From Octopus vulgaris (lineage: Eukaryota): a DNA stretch of 64,000 nucleotides. Under the pieces are notes generated by a model. That model made no database searches. It was given only the letters and a program-made list of their open reading frames with translations, and had not been told where the DNA came from. This document shows, in pieces, positions 19,505-64,000 of this stretch. The DNA lies in the NCBI GenBank assembly GCA_951406725.2, contig OX597819.1, positions 119,908,001 through 119,972,000 of the forward strand, in the 5' to 3' direction. The position numbers and the translations under genes are program-made. Each line of letters opens with the position of its first letter. The first letter of the stretch is position 1.

Positions 19505-20061
19505 AATTAATCAATATAGGGTGGCAAAAAAAATTTTGTAGAATTCTTTTGCCACCAGCGGCCTAGTGGGAAAAAATTAAATAGTCATAAACCATTTTTA
19601 AGTTCAACATCAACAATCAAGGAACGGCCATAATAGGCCATTCACCCACTAGAAATAACAGCCAAAAGCTTTAACCGCAAAATAACGTTAATTCCGTAAA
19701 CCAGGAGAAAATTGAAAAACATTTACCCTGTAATTTCTTAGACGATGCACCGTTTCATCTTCTGTTTAATGGAAAACTAACCTGATTAAATTAAATCAAG
19801 CCAATCTACCATAGGCCCTTAGATTCATCAGTAAGAAATAGCCAAAACCGGAACAGATATTTTTCACGAGGCATTCTCATTGCTACCTCGTCAATATCTG
19901 ACCTAAAATTTTCAAATCGTCGCACTCGCTAAGAAATTACAGGGTAAATGTTTTTCAATTTTCTCCTGGTTTACGGAATTAACGTTATTTTGCGGTTAAA
20001 GCTTTTGGCTGTTATTTCTAGTGGGTGAATGGCCTATTATGGCCGTTCCTTGATTATTGAT
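19505..20061 (-). mobile_element. Retrozyme-like non-coding element with ~130 bp inverted arm, in (TA)n
   Basis: ~19610-19741 is the reverse complement of 19929-20060; hammerhead at 19733-19839; TA tracts on both sides. Confidence 0.75.
19733..19839 (-). ncRNA. Type I hammerhead ribozyme with large stem II insertion
   Basis: Minus strand: ATTTCTTA-CTGATGA-ATCT[~60 nt]AGAT-GAAA-CGGTGCATCG-TC^TAAGAAAT; 8 bp stem I, canonical core, GUC site. Confidence 0.8.
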
Positions 20062-20080
20062 ATATATATATATATATATA

Positions 20081-21996
20081 TAATAGAAATATTAAAATTA
20101 CTAAGTTTCTCTAAAAGAGAACAACGGCAGCGTTCCCGGAAAATAATAGTTATCGCCATACTAATATGGCATTCTTATAAAAATAAGAATAAAGCTGTCC
20201 GCTTATTAGCTCCATGAGGCCATCGCCTTAAGTTAGCTATTTGATACACAAACTGTATCCATATAACCTTTGAACAAGGGAGGTCAGTCGCTCCACACTA
20301 CTTGGCCGGCAGCTACAGACGCGTTTCGGGGTATTGCCCCTTTTCAATGCAGCGTAGCCAGACCAGTAGGTGTCGCTTCTGACAATCTCTGTTCAAAGGT
20401 TTTATTTACCTAGCTTCGGTGGGATACATCCACTTGTTTTCAATAATAGAAATATTAAAATTACTAAGTTTCTCTAAAAGAGAACAACGGCAGCGTTCCC
20501 GGAAAATAATAGTTATCGCCATACTAATATGGCATTCTTATAAAAATAAGAATAAAGCTGTCCGCTTATTAGCTCCATGAGGCCATCGCCTTAAGTTAGC
20601 TATTTGATACACAAACTGTATCCATATAACCTTTGAACAAGGGAGGTCAGTCGCTCCACACTACTTGGCCGGCAGCTACAGACGCGTTTCGGGGTATTGC
20701 CCCTTTTCAATGCAGCGTAGCCAGACCAGTAGGTGTCGCTTCTGACAATCTCTGTTCAAAGGTTTTATTTACCTAGCTTCGGTGGGATACATCCACTTGT
20801 TTTCAATAATAGAAATATTAAAATTACTAAGTTTCTCTAAAAGAGAACAACGGCAGCGTTCCCGGAAAATAATAGTTATCGCCATACTAATATGGCATTC
20901 TTATAAAAATAAGAATACAGCTGTCCGCTTATTAGCTCCATGAGGCCATCGCCTTAAGTTAGCTATTTGATACACAAACTGTATCCATATAACCTTTGAA
21001 CAAGGGAGGTCAGTCGCTCCACACTACTTGGCCGGCAGCTACAGACGCGTTTCGGGGTATTGCCCCTTTTCAATGCAGCGTAGCCAGACCAGTAGATGTC
21101 GCTTCTGACAATCTCTGTTCAAAGGTTTTATTTACCTAGCTTCGGTGGGATACATCCACTTGTTTTCAATAATAGAAATATTAAAATTACTAAGTTTCTC
21201 TAAAAGAGAACAACGGCAGCGCTCCCGGAAAATAATAGTTATCGCCATACTAATATGGCATTCTTATAAAAATAAGAATAAAGCTGTCCGCTTATTAGCT
21301 CCATGAGGCCATCGCCTTAAGTTAGCTATTTGATACACAAACTGTATCCATATAACCTTTGAACATATAACCGAAGCTAGGTAAATAAAACCTTTGAACA
21401 GAGATTGTCAGAAGCGACACCTACTGGTCTGGCTACGCTGCATTGAAAAGGGGCAATACTCCGAAACGCGTCTGTAGCTGCCGGCCAAGTAGTGTGGAGC
21501 GACTGACCTCCCTTGTTCAAAGGTTATATGGATACAGTTTGTGTATCAAATAGCTAACTTAAGGCGATGGCCTCATGGAGCTAATAAGCGGACAGCTTTA
21601 TTCTTATTTTTATAAGAATGCCATATTAGTATGGCGATAACTATTATTTTCCGGGAACGCTGCCGTTGTTCTCTTTTAGAGAAACTTAGTAATTTTAATA
21701 TTTCTATTATTGAAAACAAGTGGATGTATCCCACCGAAGCTAGGTAAATAAAACCTTTGAACAGAGATTGTCAGAAGCGACACCTACTGGTCTGGCTACG
21801 CTGCATTGAAAAGGGCAATACCCCGAAACGCGTCTGTAGCTGCCGGCCAAGTAGTGTGGAGCGACTGACTCCTTGTTCAAAGGTTATATGGATACAGTTT
21901 GTGTATCAAATAGCTAACTTAAGGCGATGGCCTCATGGAGCTAATAAGCGGACAGCTTTATTCTTATTTTTATAAGAATGCCATATTATATGGCGA

Positions 21997-22003
<7 letters not shown>
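20081..22003. mobile_element. Retrozyme-like array: ~3.5 direct copies of a 363 bp unit, then ~1.75 inverted copies, in (TA)n
   Basis: Unit starts at 20081, 20444, 20807, 21170; inversion junction ~21366-21371; one hammerhead per unit; no ORF. Confidence 0.88.
20312..20353 (-). ncRNA. Type I hammerhead ribozyme, U3:A8 core variant (also 20675-20716 and 21038-21079 on -, 21437-21478 and 21800-21840 on +)
   Basis: GCTGCA-TTGAAAA-GGGG caata CCCC-GAAA-CGCG-TC^TGTAGC; palindromic stem III ACGCGT; stem I extends further. Confidence 0.82.
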
Positions 22004-22040
<37 letters not shown>

Positions 22041-22276: not shown

Positions 22277-22725
22277 TTATTTCTTTACTGCCCACAAGGG
22301 TCTAAAACATAGAGGGGACAAACAAGGACGGACAAACTGATTAAGTCGATTATATTGACCCCACTGCGGAACTGGTACTTATTTAATCGACCCCAGTGCG
22401 TAACTGGTACTTATGTAATCGACCCCAAAAAGATGAAAGGCAAAGTCGACCTCGGCGGAATTTGAACTCAGAACTTAGCAGCAGACGAAATACCTATTTC
22501 TTTACTACCCACCAGGGGCTAAACACAGAGAGGACATACAAGGACAGACACACGGATTAAGTCGATTACATCGACCCCAGTGCGTAATTGGTACTTATTT
22601 AATCGACCCCGAAAGGATGAAAGGCAAAGTCGACCTCGGCGGAATTTGAACTCAGAATGTAAGGGCATACGAAATACCGCTAAGCATTTGGCCCGGCGTG
22701 CTAACGTTTCTGCCAGCTCACCGTC
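22277..22725 (-). mobile_element. SINE family C, dimeric
   Basis: Two tandem family C bodies. Confidence 0.85.
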
Positions 22726-23424: not shown

Positions 23425-24000
23425 TAGGCCCAATGGTTAGGGCAGCGGACTCGCGGTCGGAGGATCGCGGTTTCAATTCCCAGACCGGGCGTTGTGTGTG
23501 TTTATTGAGCGAAAACACCTAAAGCTCCACGAGGCTCCGGCAGGGGGTGGTGGCGACTCCTATTGTACTCTTTCGCTCCAACTTTCTCTCACTCATTCTT
23601 CCTGTTTCTTGTCCCCGACTTCCTACGTAACCGCTAAGCCTGGATGCTCATTCATCCATCCTTCGATGCTCTCGGTGTCGGGGTTGAACTGCTTTCTCTT
23701 CTGCGGGTGTTACGAATAGCAAAGGACAACGTTTCGGACTTCTCACACCTTGCGAGCTCTGGGACGAAGACCGTTTGCTCAACAGCAGCAGCAACAGCAG
23801 AGGAGGCGCAATGGTCCAATGGTTAGGGCAGCGGACTCGCGGTCGTAAGAACGGAGTTTCGATTCCCAGACCGGACATTGTGATTGTTTATTGAGCAAAA
23901 ACACCTAAGCTCCACGATGCTCCGGCAGGTGGTGATGTTGAACCCCGCTGTACTATTTCACCACAAATTTCTCCCACTCTATCTTCCTACTTCTGCCACA
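23425..24000 (+). mobile_element. Two adjacent SINE family B copies
   Basis: Heads at ~23425 and ~23803 match 2730. Confidence 0.8.
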
Positions 24001-24420
24001 AAGCAGAGGCACCATGGCGTAACCCACTATGGTGTGGTAAACTTTCAGACCCTAGTCTTGATTACGAATCCTCTGTACCCGAAGATGGTTCAGCTTTCCA
24101 CCCGTTAAAAGCCACCGTTTACGGAATGAGGAAAACAACGTAGCTTTCGCGCCCGTGCAACCGCCAGTCTATGGACAGTGGTGGGTGGATCTTCAAGTTG
24201 CCAAAAGCATTCTTTGTAGCTTAGAGTAGGCTCGAATTCGAGATATTTCTATGCGGCAAATGGCGTGAGTCCTGATTGGAAGAAGAAGAAGAAGAAGAAG
24301 AAGAAGAAGAAGAAGAAGAAGAAGAAGAAGAAGAAGAAGAAGAAGAAGAAGAAGAAGAAGAAGAAGAAACAACAGCAAATTTCAGGGAAGCCAAACAAGG
24401 GAGGAAATATTTGAAGTTGT

Positions 24421-24740
24421 GAAGGCACATGGCCTAGTGGTTAGAGCAGCGAACTCGCGGTCGTGGCATCGCGGTTTCGAATCTCAGACCGAGCGATGTG
24501 TGTGTTTATGAGCGAAACGCCTTAGCTTCACGTGGCTCCGGCAAAATGTAATGGCAAACTTCTGCTGACTCTTTCGCCACAGCTTTCTCTCACTCTTTCC
24601 TCCTGCATCTTGCAGCTCACCTACGACGGACCGGCGTTCCGTCCAGATGGAGAACCTATACGCCAAGGAGACCGGGAAACCGGCCCTTATGAGCCAGGCA
24701 TGGCTCGAGAAGGAACAAACATATTTGAAGTTGGCCACCC
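24421..24740 (+). mobile_element. SINE family B variant
   Basis: GGCACATGGCCTAGTGGTTAGAGC...GGTTTCGAATCTC head; body shared with 55499-55740. Confidence 0.75.
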
Positions 24741-25153: not shown

Positions 25154-25423
25154 CCAGTATTTTTTTTGCTAGTTCATTTTGCCTCTTTGCCTTCTCTCCT
25201 GGTACTGTATGAACATTTAATGTAGTTTTTGAGTCAGGTTTTGGCTGATATTTCCAGTGTGGTGGTATCTCTTTATATTCCCTAAAGTATTACTTTAATA
25301 TATGTATGTGTGTGTGTGTGTGTGTGTGTATAAGAAATTAAAAAAGGAAAATACGCACACTTACATAGTTATAATATAATTTTTAATATATCGACCGGTT
25401 TCGCTATCGCTATTAAAACTAGT

Positions 25424-25727
25424 TTCACCTGTGCCTCTGAGAACCTGATTTATGTAATAAACTGCTCGGTTTGCGGACACCGGTTATTGGACAAACGAGT
25501 ATGACCTTGAGAAAGAGAACAATTCTACATAAGTGCAAATCCGTTTCCTGTAATACAGACAAATTCCCCTCAGTGAACACATAGAAAAATGTGCAGGTAA
25601 CATCAAACCAAATTTCACCGTCTTCCCTTTCTACCAGTGCAAAGACGCAATCACTCAATTGGAACGTTTAAATAAAGAAACCTTTTTCATCGAAAAATAC
25701 AAAACACGTCTCAATATGCACTCATAA
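25424..25727 (+). pseudogene. PLE GIY-YIG endonuclease remnant
   Basis: FTCASENLIYVINCSVCG..IGQTSMTLRKR...PLSEHIEKC...FYQC...RLNKETFFIEKYKTRLN (frameshifted). Confidence 0.85.
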
Positions 25728-26004
25728 CCAACTTTTATCTTTTTACATATTTCAATTCACGATTACATCACTGTACATAAATCCTCTACTAAACAAGGTT
25801 TTTGAACACATATATAATCCCCACCCATTACCGAAAGCTGAACAGTTATCTACCTTACCCACAACAATAACAATAATAATGACAACCAATTACCTCCCTT
25901 TATTTATCTACTTGTGATGTCATTGACTCGTGAATTTCATCACACACAACATGGACCAAATTTCTTCTTAAGAAAAAATATATATTCAAATAATTAAAAC
26001 ATAT

Positions 26005-51958: not shown

Positions 51959-52127
51959 CTGTGTGGTAAGTAGCTTGCTTAATAACCACATGGGTTCATT
52001 CCCACTGCGTGGCACCTTGGGCAGGTGTCTTCTACTATAGCCTCGGGCCGACCAAAGCCTTGTGAGTTGATTGGGTAGATGAAAACTGAAAGAAGCTAAT
52101 CGTATATATGTATATATATATATATAT

Positions 52128-52968
52128 ATAACATAAGGGGGATCAGCCATCTGAATGTGGCTAGGGACAGGGCGGGTTAGTGGGGGGGGTTACTGATGCA
52201 TTTAGCCCCAGGCGATCATCGACGTCACCAGAAGGACCGACACCATCTCGGTGTCCTTGCCAGCCTGCAAAGGGAGATCAGCCTCCCCGAAGATACGGAT
52301 ACTAAATACGGACCGGTTTCGAGGTATTTGCCTCTTATCAACGCATGGTAAGTACCGTTTTTCGTTGAGGGACTTCCTCTACAGGCTGGATATATATGGA
52401 TTTTCACAGTAACCACAGTCACTGATGTGCAAAAACCGTTCAACAACAATAATAAATCTCTGAGCGAGATATAAACAGTAACTGCTCTATAACATAAGGG
52501 GGATCAGCCATCTGAATGTGGCTAGGGACAGGGCGGGTTAGTGGGGGGGGGTTACTGATGCATTTAGCCCCAGGCGATCATCAACGTCACCAGAAGGGCT
52601 GACACCATCTCGGTGTCCTTGCCAGCCTGCAAAGGGAGATCAGCCTCCCCGAAGATACGGATACTATATACGGACCGGTTTCGAGGTATTTGCCTCTTAT
52701 CAAAGCATGGTAAGAACCGTTCTTCGTTGAGGGACTTCCTCTACAGGCTGGATATATATGGATTTTCAAGGTAACCACAGTCACTGATGTAGAAAAACCG
52801 TTCGACAACAATAATAAATCCCTTCTGGTGACGTTGATGATCGCCTGGGGCTAAATGCATCAGTAACCCCCCCCACTAACCCGCCCTGTCCCTAGCCACA
52901 TTCAGATGGCTGATCCCCCTTATGTTATAGAGCAGTTACTGTTTATATCTCGCTCAGAGATTTATTAT

Positions 52969-52972
<4 letters not shown>
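52128..52972. mobile_element. Retrozyme-like array: ~1.9 direct copies of a 361-362 bp unit plus ~150 bp inverted arm
   Basis: AACATAAGGGGGATC at 52130 and 52491; inverted segment 52821-52970; one hammerhead per unit; TA flanks. Confidence 0.86.
52295..52358 (-). ncRNA. Type I hammerhead ribozyme, U3:A8 core variant (second copy 52657-52720)
   Basis: ACGG TACT tacca TGCG-TTGATAA-GAGG caaata CCTC-GAAA-CCGG-TC^CGTA ttt AGTA t CCGT. Confidence 0.82.
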
Positions 52973-62985: not shown

Positions 62986-63243
62986 TTGTTTATTTTTATG
63001 CGTTTTGTTTTTATTTATTTTTTGTGTCTCTTAATATGTTTTGCTACAATTGCTTTTCCTTTGCTGCCGATCCGTTCGTTCGCCCTCTCCCAATCGAACG
63101 TTCGCTTTCCGCCCGCGCCTGGGCAGGGTTTTGTTTTTTCTTTTCGTTTCCACTTTCTCGCGCCTCCTTCCTCGCATCCGACCCCCGGCCTCGTCTTCGT
63201 TTTCTCTTCGCAGCCGAGGACCCAGTCAGTCGCGTACCCATCG

Positions 63244-64000
63244 CAGCCCCCTCCTTTGCCAACCTAGTCATGGGATATCTAGAAATCAGTCTGTATCGTA
63301 AGGTTCTAGAAAGATATGGCAGCCCTTTCTCCCTCTACATAGAAAACAACTGGAAGAGATACCTAGATGACTGTTTCATTCTTTGGCATGAAAATATAGA
63401 GAAACTCAAAGAATTCCACGCAATTTTAAATGGACTGGACGTAAACATCCAATTCACGATGGAATATAGCCAGCAACAACCCCCCTTCCTCGACATCCTC
63501 ATTAAGAAATCTAATAACGTAATAAAAACAGATATATACTACGGATTCCAAGCAATATCTACCATTCAATTCATGCCACCCCAGACACACCAGAATGATT
63601 ATCCCCTTCAATCTAGCAAAAAGGATATGTACTATAGTTTCTAATGCAAACACCAGAGACACACGACTGCATGAACTAAAAGATACACTCATCACCAGGA
63701 ACTACCCACCTTCACTAATTGGCATATGCATTCAACGTGCCCTTCAACTCAACATCCAGGAACTCAAACATCTCAAATTAAAGAAAAATTTACAACCAAA
63801 AGCCTTACCATACATCTCCACACACAACCCTCTCAACAAGGAAGCCTTCGACACCATCCTCCAAAACATATCCCTGCTATAAAAGGACCACTGAATGAAC
63901 TTAATCCCCCAAACACACACGATCATAAAAAGCAAGAGACAGCCCAAATCAATGAAAAGTCTCGTAACACAAGCCCGAATACGCTCTTCAACACTGAAGC
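63244..64000 (+). pseudogene. Penelope-like element reverse transcriptase C-terminal half, running off the window
   Basis: APSFANLVMGYLE, WKRYLDDCFILW, IQFTME, PFLDILI, TDIY; after a frameshift YLPFNSCHPRH..IPFNLAKRICTIVS..L..RNYP. Confidence 0.9.

What the first reader, a model, noticed from the sequence alone, without database searches (positions are those of the whole stretch)
20081..22003. 363 bp tandem-plus-inverted array with U3:A8 hammerheads and a densely hairpinned unit
Copies are nearly identical, so the array is young. The core reads UUGAAAA rather than CUGANGA, which preserves the established 3:8 Watson-Crick pair as U:A and would be missed by standard motif searches. Stem III ACGCGT has essentially no loop and is palindromic, the arrangement known to work through dimeric hammerheads, which a tandem transcript supplies. 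The rest of the unit has several hairpins (GATAC/GTATC, TTCTTAT/ATAAGAA, GCCATA/TATGGC, TTCTCT/AGAGAA) and a long-range ACCTTTGAACA/TGTTCAAAGGT pair enclosing the ribozyme. A multimer fits rolling-circle reverse transcription of a 363 nt circle (inference).
Basis: partly seen in the sequence, partly recalled or inferred. Interest (0 to 1): 0.82.

Follow-up and report, generated by a model that had tools for sequence, protein, structure and literature searches.

The report
Penelope-mobilised hammerhead RNA-circle retroelement
This is one of thousands of copies of a small non-coding jumping element with a self-cutting RNA motif, and the shape of its insertions suggests that a Penelope-type enzyme copies one RNA circle round and round onto both strands of a cut, which until now was mostly a proposal.

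Summary
Observation confirmed: 3.54 units of 363 bp, a 4-nt joint, 1.76 inverted units, between (TA)n tracts; five type I hammerheads with U3:A8 and palindromic ACGCGU stem III. It is one insertion of a dispersed non-coding family (1,265 exact ribozyme cores): a non-LTR retrozyme. U3:A8 is real (86-87% identical siblings of a second family carry C3:G8) but already described in Schistosoma Penelope elements. The informative part is insertion anatomy. Two arms point outwards; one ends at unit position ~1, the other at ~63 (51 vs 1 loci); 12-13 bp target duplications; both arms share one haplotype (298 vs 5); arms run through the cleavage site up to seven times without indels; units differ mostly by singletons (190 vs 8 shared). 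A Penelope-like element in this genome has U3:A8 ribozymes, (TA)n targets and the same one-tail rule. Best reading: a Penelope RT/endonuclease primes both strands of a staggered cut from two fixed sites on one RNA, probably a circle. Not shown: expression, cleavage, circles, dimers, read support, which Penelope family is the partner.

The parts
20061..20080 (.). (TA)n target tract, left side
   Evidence: sequence; 64 of 96 two-armed loci have (TA)>=4 at both edges
20080..21365 (-). Left arm, 3.54 units; RNA (ribozyme) sense is the minus strand, so the RNA 3' end faces the left flank; begins at start site S1 (unit position ~1)
20081..20142 (-). 62-nt 'tail' between the two inferred reverse-transcription start sites, present at this end only
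20312..20353 (-). Type I hammerhead 1 (U3:A8 core, stem III ACGCGU); predicted cleavage between 20318 and 20317
20675..20716 (-). Hammerhead 2
21038..21079 (-). Hammerhead 3
20265..20401 (-). Long-range stem of the predicted rod (unit 185-196 paired with 310-321) in copy 1; one compensatory A-U/G-C change among haplotypes; inner arm ends cluster at its foot
21366..21369 (.). TATA joint between the two 5'-truncated arms
21370..22005 (+). Right arm, 1.76 units, RNA sense on the plus strand; ends at start site S63 (unit position 63)
21437..21478 (+). Hammerhead 4 (one C>U change in stem II, G-U pair)
21800..21840 (+). Hammerhead 5 (one G missing in stem II; mutation or consensus error)
22003..22036 (.). 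(TA)n target tract, right side
52127..52972 (.). Second retrozyme family (B): 361-362 bp unit, UUGAUAA core, ACCGGU stem III, same two-armed layout (52127-52823 and 52821-52972), ~45-nt tail, in (TA)n

Best explanation
A non-autonomous, non-coding retroelement (non-LTR retrozyme) mobilised in trans by a Penelope-like element (PLE) protein. Inferred cycle: a multimeric transcript is cut by the U3:A8 hammerheads (probably as dimers, because stem III is only the palindrome ACGCGU) into 363-nt monomers that are ligated into a compact circle. A PLE RT/GIY-YIG complex makes a staggered cut about 12-13 bp apart, usually in (TA)n, and extends BOTH DNA 3' ends on the same RNA, one from a fixed site at unit position ~1 and the other from a fixed site 62 nt away. 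Each cDNA runs around the template for 0.1 to 7+ turns, often stalls at the foot of the long stem, and the two cDNAs are joined head to head by microhomology or a few added bases. Shown by sequence: ribozyme motif, family, two fixed ends, one of each per insertion, target duplication, haplotype sharing, precise passage through the cleavage site. Inferred: transcription, cleavage, ligation, circular template, dimers, identity of the enzyme.
For: Family: 1,265 exact ribozyme cores, control 0; 4,027 exact hits of a 22-mer, control 0. End rule: of 62 two-armed insertions, 51 pair S1 with S63, 1 pairs S1 with S1, 10 have one end off-site (score-picked set 26:1, chromosome-order set 25:0). Same rule in subfamily A' (10:0 of 14 pairs), family B (8:1 of 11), C3:G8 families (10 of 10 loci, one in three pieces) and in a coding PLE of this genome (7 clear two-armed loci of 41 examined, read by eye). 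Target duplication of >=8 informative nt in 13 of 32 loci with a non-TA edge, shuffled mean 2.5, maximum 8; the clearest are 12-14 nt. Arms share haplotype at 9 diagnostic sites: 298 concordant, 5 discordant in 59 loci; shuffled 37% discordant; 7 variants fixed in both arms of a single sampled locus, including the window's own. Within loci: 153 site-cases fixed in all copies, 190 singletons, 8 shared by some copies; two of the 8 alternate with period 2 (L055 in register in both arms, L030), as a dimeric circle would give. In-register minor alleles shared between arms 1, not shared 82. 107 of 133 arms cross the cleavage site, up to 5 times, one array about 7 times; 0 indels there in 182 passes; inner ends not enriched at the cleavage site (4 vs 4.4 expected) but at unit 184-200 (31 vs 6.2). 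60 distinct joints among 62. Core positions 3-9 nearly invariant in ~176 copies except position 7. A full-length PLE with RT, CX4CxxC linker, C-terminal GIY-YIG-type region and U3:A8 minimal hammerheads in both pLTRs exists here (14,286 first-look candidates). Literature: a purified PLE cuts and extends both strands, starts at two internal RNA sites that define the tail, prefers AT-rich DNA and is predicted to be a dimer (PMC11167929); PLEs show inverted 5'-truncated copies, a tail often at one end only, and (TA)n bias (PMC8557442).
Against: No RNA or read evidence was obtained. The unit has no significant DNA similarity to the PLE pLTRs compared (best E 0.59 for family A; other PLE 3' ends inspected), and its 62-nt tail is longer than the 30-40 bp reported for PLEs and the ~42 nt of the PLE found here, so the partner is unidentified. 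In vitro the anole PLE used uncleaved RNA, did not need hammerhead cleavage, and showed no difference in start site between strands, which favours a linear multimer and does not predict a strict one-of-each rule. Haplotype sharing between arms could also come from a homogeneous RNA pool of one active source. One locus (L004) shows local duplication after mutation; L057 is S1/S1 and L066 may be a second such case; two joints recur in different loci. Eight of nine Xenopus retrozyme dimers did not cleave in vitro, so a motif does not guarantee activity. Covariation support is thin: 7 compensatory pairs, 4 of them probably one register shift in two related sequences.
Confidence: 0.72

Rival explanations
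1. Same PLE-driven two-strand insertion, but the template is an uncleaved linear multimer transcribed from a few long, homogeneous source arrays; the hammerhead matters little for copying.
For: Uncleaved RNA was the main substrate of the anole PLE in vitro. Long arrays exist (about 7.6 units). A young source is homogeneous, so the singleton pattern does not exclude it.
Against: At least ten haplotypes are each fixed across all units of their arrays (one array has eight otherwise unseen variants in all 5-6 units), which needs repeated monomer bottlenecks followed by re-multimerisation; linear copying only shortens arrays. No arm was seen to run through a parent's inversion joint in 80 stretches. 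Period-2 alternation in L055 and L030. The catalytic core is conserved and covaries at 3:8.
Confidence: 0.2
2. Monomer insertions or orphan pLTRs that later grew into tandem minisatellites by unequal crossover or slippage (the model favoured in bioRxiv 2026.07.22.740005), with inversion by later rearrangement.
For: L004 has three variants shared by two adjacent units only. The preprint discusses this route.
Against: Shared-subset variants are 8 against 190 singletons; fixed complementary outer ends with variable inner ends; target duplications enclose the whole two-armed structure.
Confidence: 0.05
3. The inverted arm is an assembly artefact (fold-back chimera in long reads) or the element is a Helitron/MITE-like DNA element.
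For: Four 1-nt gaps in the outer right copy; no reads laid; a few joints are perfect fold-backs at a short palindrome.
Against: Fold-back chimeras would give mirror-image arms and mirrored flanks; here the arms have different phases and ends, flanks are direct duplications, and the rule holds in five element groups.
Confidence: 0.03

Closest known systems
Metazoan non-LTR retrozymes (coral, mussel 350-390 bp, axolotl; PMC7229834, read: results and discussion, parts 2-4 of 6, plus term search)
   Same: Non-coding 150-450 bp tandem units, one type I hammerhead per unit, GC below 50%, compact predicted circle, weak palindromic stem III as in axolotl, target duplications longer than 4 bp; PLEs proposed as the mobiliser.
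   Different: U3:A8 core; inverted second arm, two fixed ends and microsatellite targeting are not mentioned in that paper's main text (0 hits for inverted, tail, microsatellite, octopus; supplement not read). Circles were shown there, not here.
bioRxiv 10.64898/2026.07.22.740005, retrozymes as non-autonomous PLE derivatives (read: abstract to discussion, parts 1-3 of 5; term search; supplements closed)
   Same: Same conclusion on PLE dependence.
   Different: Its evidence is co-occurrence and pLTR homology in vertebrates, and it invokes local tandem amplification. Here there is no detectable pLTR homology; the evidence is the insertion footprint, which argues that multimers are made at insertion.
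Penelope-like elements, Neptune/Nematis type (PMC8557442, passages); Poseidon PAc biochemistry (PMC11167929, main text parts 1-2 of 4)
   Same: Inverted 5'-truncated copy, tail at one end, AT-rich or (TA)n targets, two internal start sites, both strands extended.
   Different: No ORF; canonical-size hammerhead instead of a minimal one; 62-nt tail; the strict one-site-per-arm pairing and one haplotype per insertion were not reported in the passages read.
Schistosoma Cercyon PLE minimal hammerheads with U3-A8 (PMC4209133, parts 1-2 of 4)
   Same: U3-A8 covariation, palindromic stem III, dimer model, proposal of circular templates for more-than-unit cDNA.
   Different: There the variant occurs mostly as single minimal motifs (~1,300); here it dominates the genome for this pattern (4,360 U3:A8 hits, control 70, against 174 C3:G8 hits, control 231) in both retrozymes and PLEs.
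Non-autonomous Chlamys PLEs such as MRC1 and Chlamys-N4 (PMC8557442 and PMC9977147, passages)
   Same: Non-coding partners of PLEs, multicopy head-to-tail insertions, microsatellite targets.
   Different: They resemble their partner at the 3' end and that clade lacks canonical hammerheads.

Membership tests
Non-LTR retrozyme | 150-450 bp tandem unit with one type I hammerhead per unit | tested here: met
Non-LTR retrozyme | No LTR/PBS/PPT layout, non-coding, GC below 50%, dispersed multicopy | tested here: met
   GC 0.40; dispersed on many contigs; no PLE protein match inside the units. PBS/PPT were not searched separately.
Non-LTR retrozyme | Target duplication longer than 4 bp when visible | tested here: met
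   hidden by (TA)n at the window locus itself
Non-LTR retrozyme | Self-cleavage and accumulation of monomeric circular RNA | not testable with these tools
   no read data were laid; cleavage needs a bench test
Type I hammerhead ribozyme | Core N3 U G A N N8 A ... GAAA ... UH with a Watson-Crick 3:8 pair and stems I-III | tested here: met
   stems I and II probability 0.94-0.99; C3:G8 in 86-87% identical siblings of family B
Type I hammerhead ribozyme | Match to an Rfam hammerhead model | tested here: not met
   expected for this variant, but it is a miss
Type I hammerhead ribozyme | Catalytic activity as monomer or dimer | not testable with these tools
   bench test
Autonomous Penelope-like element | ORF with RT and GIY-YIG endonuclease | tested here: not met
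   no ORF match in the array
PLE-mobilised non-autonomous element | PLE insertion footprint: inverted truncated copy, tail at one end, microsatellite target | tested here: met
PLE-mobilised non-autonomous element | Sequence similarity to the pLTR or 3' end of an autonomous partner | tested here: inconclusive
   none found against 17 loci of two or three PLE-type families and six other 3' ends; the genome's PLE families were not surveyed fully

The most novel reading that the evidence does not exclude
One circular RNA (a monomer, sometimes a dimer) is held by a two-subunit Penelope RT/endonuclease whose subunits are each committed to one of two start sites; each primes one strand of a 12-13 bp staggered cut and rolls around the same circle. 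The strict one-tail rule, the head-to-head arms and the pseudo-LTR tandems of Penelope elements would then be one mechanism, readable from these non-coding passengers, with an RNA that shares no recognisable sequence with its enzyme's own element.
Probability: 0.45. Interest if true: 0.82.

Novelty: new variant of a known kind. Interest (0 to 1): 0.64.

Why it matters
How Penelope-like elements make their tandem/inverted insertions, and what mobilises animal retrozymes, are stated as open in the papers read. These short, young, haplotype-marked insertions give countable footprints: two start sites used once each, one haplotype per event, multimers made at insertion. They also offer a 363-nt defined template for an in vitro test. 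Because U3:A8 cores outnumber C3:G8 cores about 25 to 1 for the pattern searched here and Rfam misses them, standard surveys would undercount retrozymes in such genomes.

Tried and rejected
Sequencing runs: 24 listed, 20 hold the stretch in part, none on record as RNA: no RNA holder listed; no reads or contigs were laid, so nothing is claimed on expression or on other species. Rfam: no hammerhead. Search for the partner PLE by DNA similarity: nothing significant. Earlier scan findings: none. Arms stopping at the cleavage site, as a cut linear monomer predicts: rejected. Arm length does not differ by start site (medians 390 and 408 nt, 25 loci, p 0.49). Folding as strand evidence: rejected. Back-junction reads as a circle test: rejected on logic. 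Literature searches: hammerhead/retrozyme/metazoan/Penelope, internal initiation/tail/pLTR (22), octopus+hammerhead ribozyme+Penelope (38; one paper, on Naiads), dimers/palindromic (39), retrozyme/rolling circle/inverted/microsatellite (55), Neptune/non-autonomous/circular RNA (56), C3U/G8A (70; none), PLE/target duplication/both strands (83). None of the listings or passages read reports this family or the strict pairing rule; subscription papers (including Arkhipova 2006 and Lunse 2017, the latter not held) and all supplements were not seen and may contain either. Rows left out of counts: duplicate loci of one array; 10 two-armed loci with an off-site end (listed); six near-identical contig C31 copies of family B.

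Full report
What is there. The region is a single insertion between two (TA)n tracts: 3.54 head-to-tail units of 363 bp (20080-21365), a TATA joint, and 1.76 units inverted (21370-22005). Each unit carries, on the strand that points out towards the flank, a type I hammerhead with stem I GCUGCA/UGUAGC, core UUGAAAA, stem II GGGG-CAAUA-CCCC, GAAA, and stem III reduced to the palindrome ACGCGU. As a circle the monomer folds into a rod with the ribozyme at one end and a branched domain at the other (-119.8 kcal/mol, z -7.0); stems I and II form with probability 0.94-0.99; the opposite strand folds almost as well, so this does not choose the strand. Rfam does not detect the ribozyme. The genome is 2.8 Gb in 227 contigs; from recalled repeat content it looks like an octopus, which I did not test.

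It is a family. The unit has 1,135 first-look candidates, the 40 scored being 97-100% identical; the exact ribozyme core occurs 1,265 times and a 22-mer 4,027 times, controls 0. A subfamily at about 86% identity exists. A second family lies in this window at 52127-52972. Its monomer is 86-87% identical over its whole length to two families whose core is CUGACGA: a natural U3:A8 / C3:G8 swap in homologous elements. With one pattern, U3:A8 cores number 4,360 (control 70) and C3:G8 cores 174 (control 231, so that count alone is not above background, although many hits are visibly tandem families). U3-A8 itself is published for Schistosoma Penelope hammerheads (PMC4209133). Among 14 aligned monomers, 7 of 103 pairs show two-sided changes; three lie in the rod, four are probably one register shift, and the structure came from the same alignment, so this is modest support.

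Insertion anatomy. I mapped 40 score-selected loci and 40 stretches covering 42 of the 62 clusters listed in order on contig C1 (three were already in the first set, and most others skipped were the diverged subfamily). Of 62 two-armed insertions, 51 have one outer end at unit position ~1 and the other at ~63, one has both at ~1, and 10 have one end off-site, one of which may be a second exception. The rule repeats in subfamily A' (10:0), family B (8:1) and the C3:G8 families (10 of 10). Both outer ends are RNA 3' ends, where target-primed reverse transcription starts; inner ends vary (60 distinct joints of 62) and mostly overlap by 1-6 nt or carry a few added bases. 64 of 96 two-armed loci have (TA)n at both edges; of the other 32, 13 show an informative duplication of 8 nt or more (shuffled mean 2.5, maximum 8), the clearest 12-14 nt.

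One template per event. At nine diagnostic sites the two arms agree 298 times and disagree 5 times (shuffled: 37% disagreement). Seven variants, including the window's own, are fixed in both arms of one sampled locus only. Within loci, 153 site-cases are fixed in all copies, 190 are single-copy, and 8 are shared by a subset; two of these alternate with period 2, one locus shows local duplication, and one is a junction double count. So the units were made together from a uniform template rather than grown stepwise. 107 of 133 arms pass the cleavage site, up to five times (about seven in one array), with no indel there in 182 passes, and they do not stop there; they stop preferentially at unit 184-200, the foot of the long stem (31 vs 6.2 expected). 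A homogeneous pool from one active source could mimic part of this; the repeated fixation of new variants across whole arrays is what favours a monomer circle.

The likely enzyme. The loose ribozyme search also returned minimal U3:A8 hammerheads downstream of a GIY-YIG-type frame. That family has 14,286 first-look candidates; locus L168 is full length, with pLTRs, an RT domain (Pfam RVT_1), a CX4CxxC linker and a C-terminal endonuclease region recognised by eye from its motifs, the coding region lying in two frames in this copy. By the linker it is Neptune- or Nematis-like (PMC8557442). It inserts in (TA)n, has a tail of about 42 nt, and its 7 clear two-armed loci among 41 examined have one tailed and one short end. 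It shares no significant DNA similarity with the 363-bp unit, so it shows the mechanism is present, not that it is the partner. A purified Penelope protein cuts and extends both strands of AT-rich DNA, starts at two internal RNA sites that define the tail, and is predicted to dimerise; but it used uncleaved RNA and showed no strand preference of start sites (PMC11167929).

Verdict. A non-LTR retrozyme (PMC7229834) of a U3:A8 variant, very probably mobilised by Penelope machinery (about 0.85) and probably from a circular template (about 0.65-0.7). The class, the PLE link (also bioRxiv 2026.07.22.740005), the core variant and the one-sided tail are each known. What I did not find in the searches listed is the combined footprint: strict one-site-per-arm pairing, one haplotype per two-armed insertion, and multimers formed at insertion. 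Expression, cleavage, circularity, dimer dependence and read support for this locus remain untested; supplements and subscription papers were not seen.

Noticed in passing
window 52127-52972: Second retrozyme family (361-362 bp, UUGAUAA core) with the same two-armed layout; 86-87% identical to C3:G8 families elsewhere (L198-L207).
   Followed up: yes
L168:966-5560 (G000:C3:86383500-86390500): Full-length Neptune/Nematis-like Penelope element with U3:A8 minimal hammerheads in both pLTRs; very high copy number; coding region in two frames in this copy.
   Followed up: partly
window 25382-25990 (+) and 63243-63990 (+): Fragments of other Penelope-like families, 55-65% amino-acid identity to the L168 protein; the first ends in (TA)n with a short/tail-like end and a degenerate GAAACCGGUC motif.
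   Followed up: partly
window 19609-20061: Palindromic element with 133-nt arms at 99% complementarity (inner arms continue), directly left of the array's (TA)n; possibly another head-to-head insertion or a MITE.
   Followed up: no
L074, L077, L078, L081, L088, L094, L096, L099-L101: A third U3:A8 minimal hammerhead family with a long A/U stem II, ending in (TA)n with short and tailed ends; its coding partner was not traced.
   Followed up: no
L055 and L030: A variant alternates with period 2 along the array (in register in both arms of L055), as expected from a dimeric circular template.
   Followed up: partly
L176:1445-4414 (G000:C1:162626000-162635900): Longest array seen, about 7.6 units, preceded by a partial copy in the same orientation rather than inverted.
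   Followed up: partly
window 22278-22700 and 23425-24500: Dispersed SINE-like repeats, some tRNA-like; resemble octopus SINEs from recall, not tested.
   Followed up: no
PLE 3' ends in L168, L028 and window ~25.9 kb: Tails of three different Penelope-like families contain CCACGTG; the tails of retrozyme families A and B do not.
   Followed up: no
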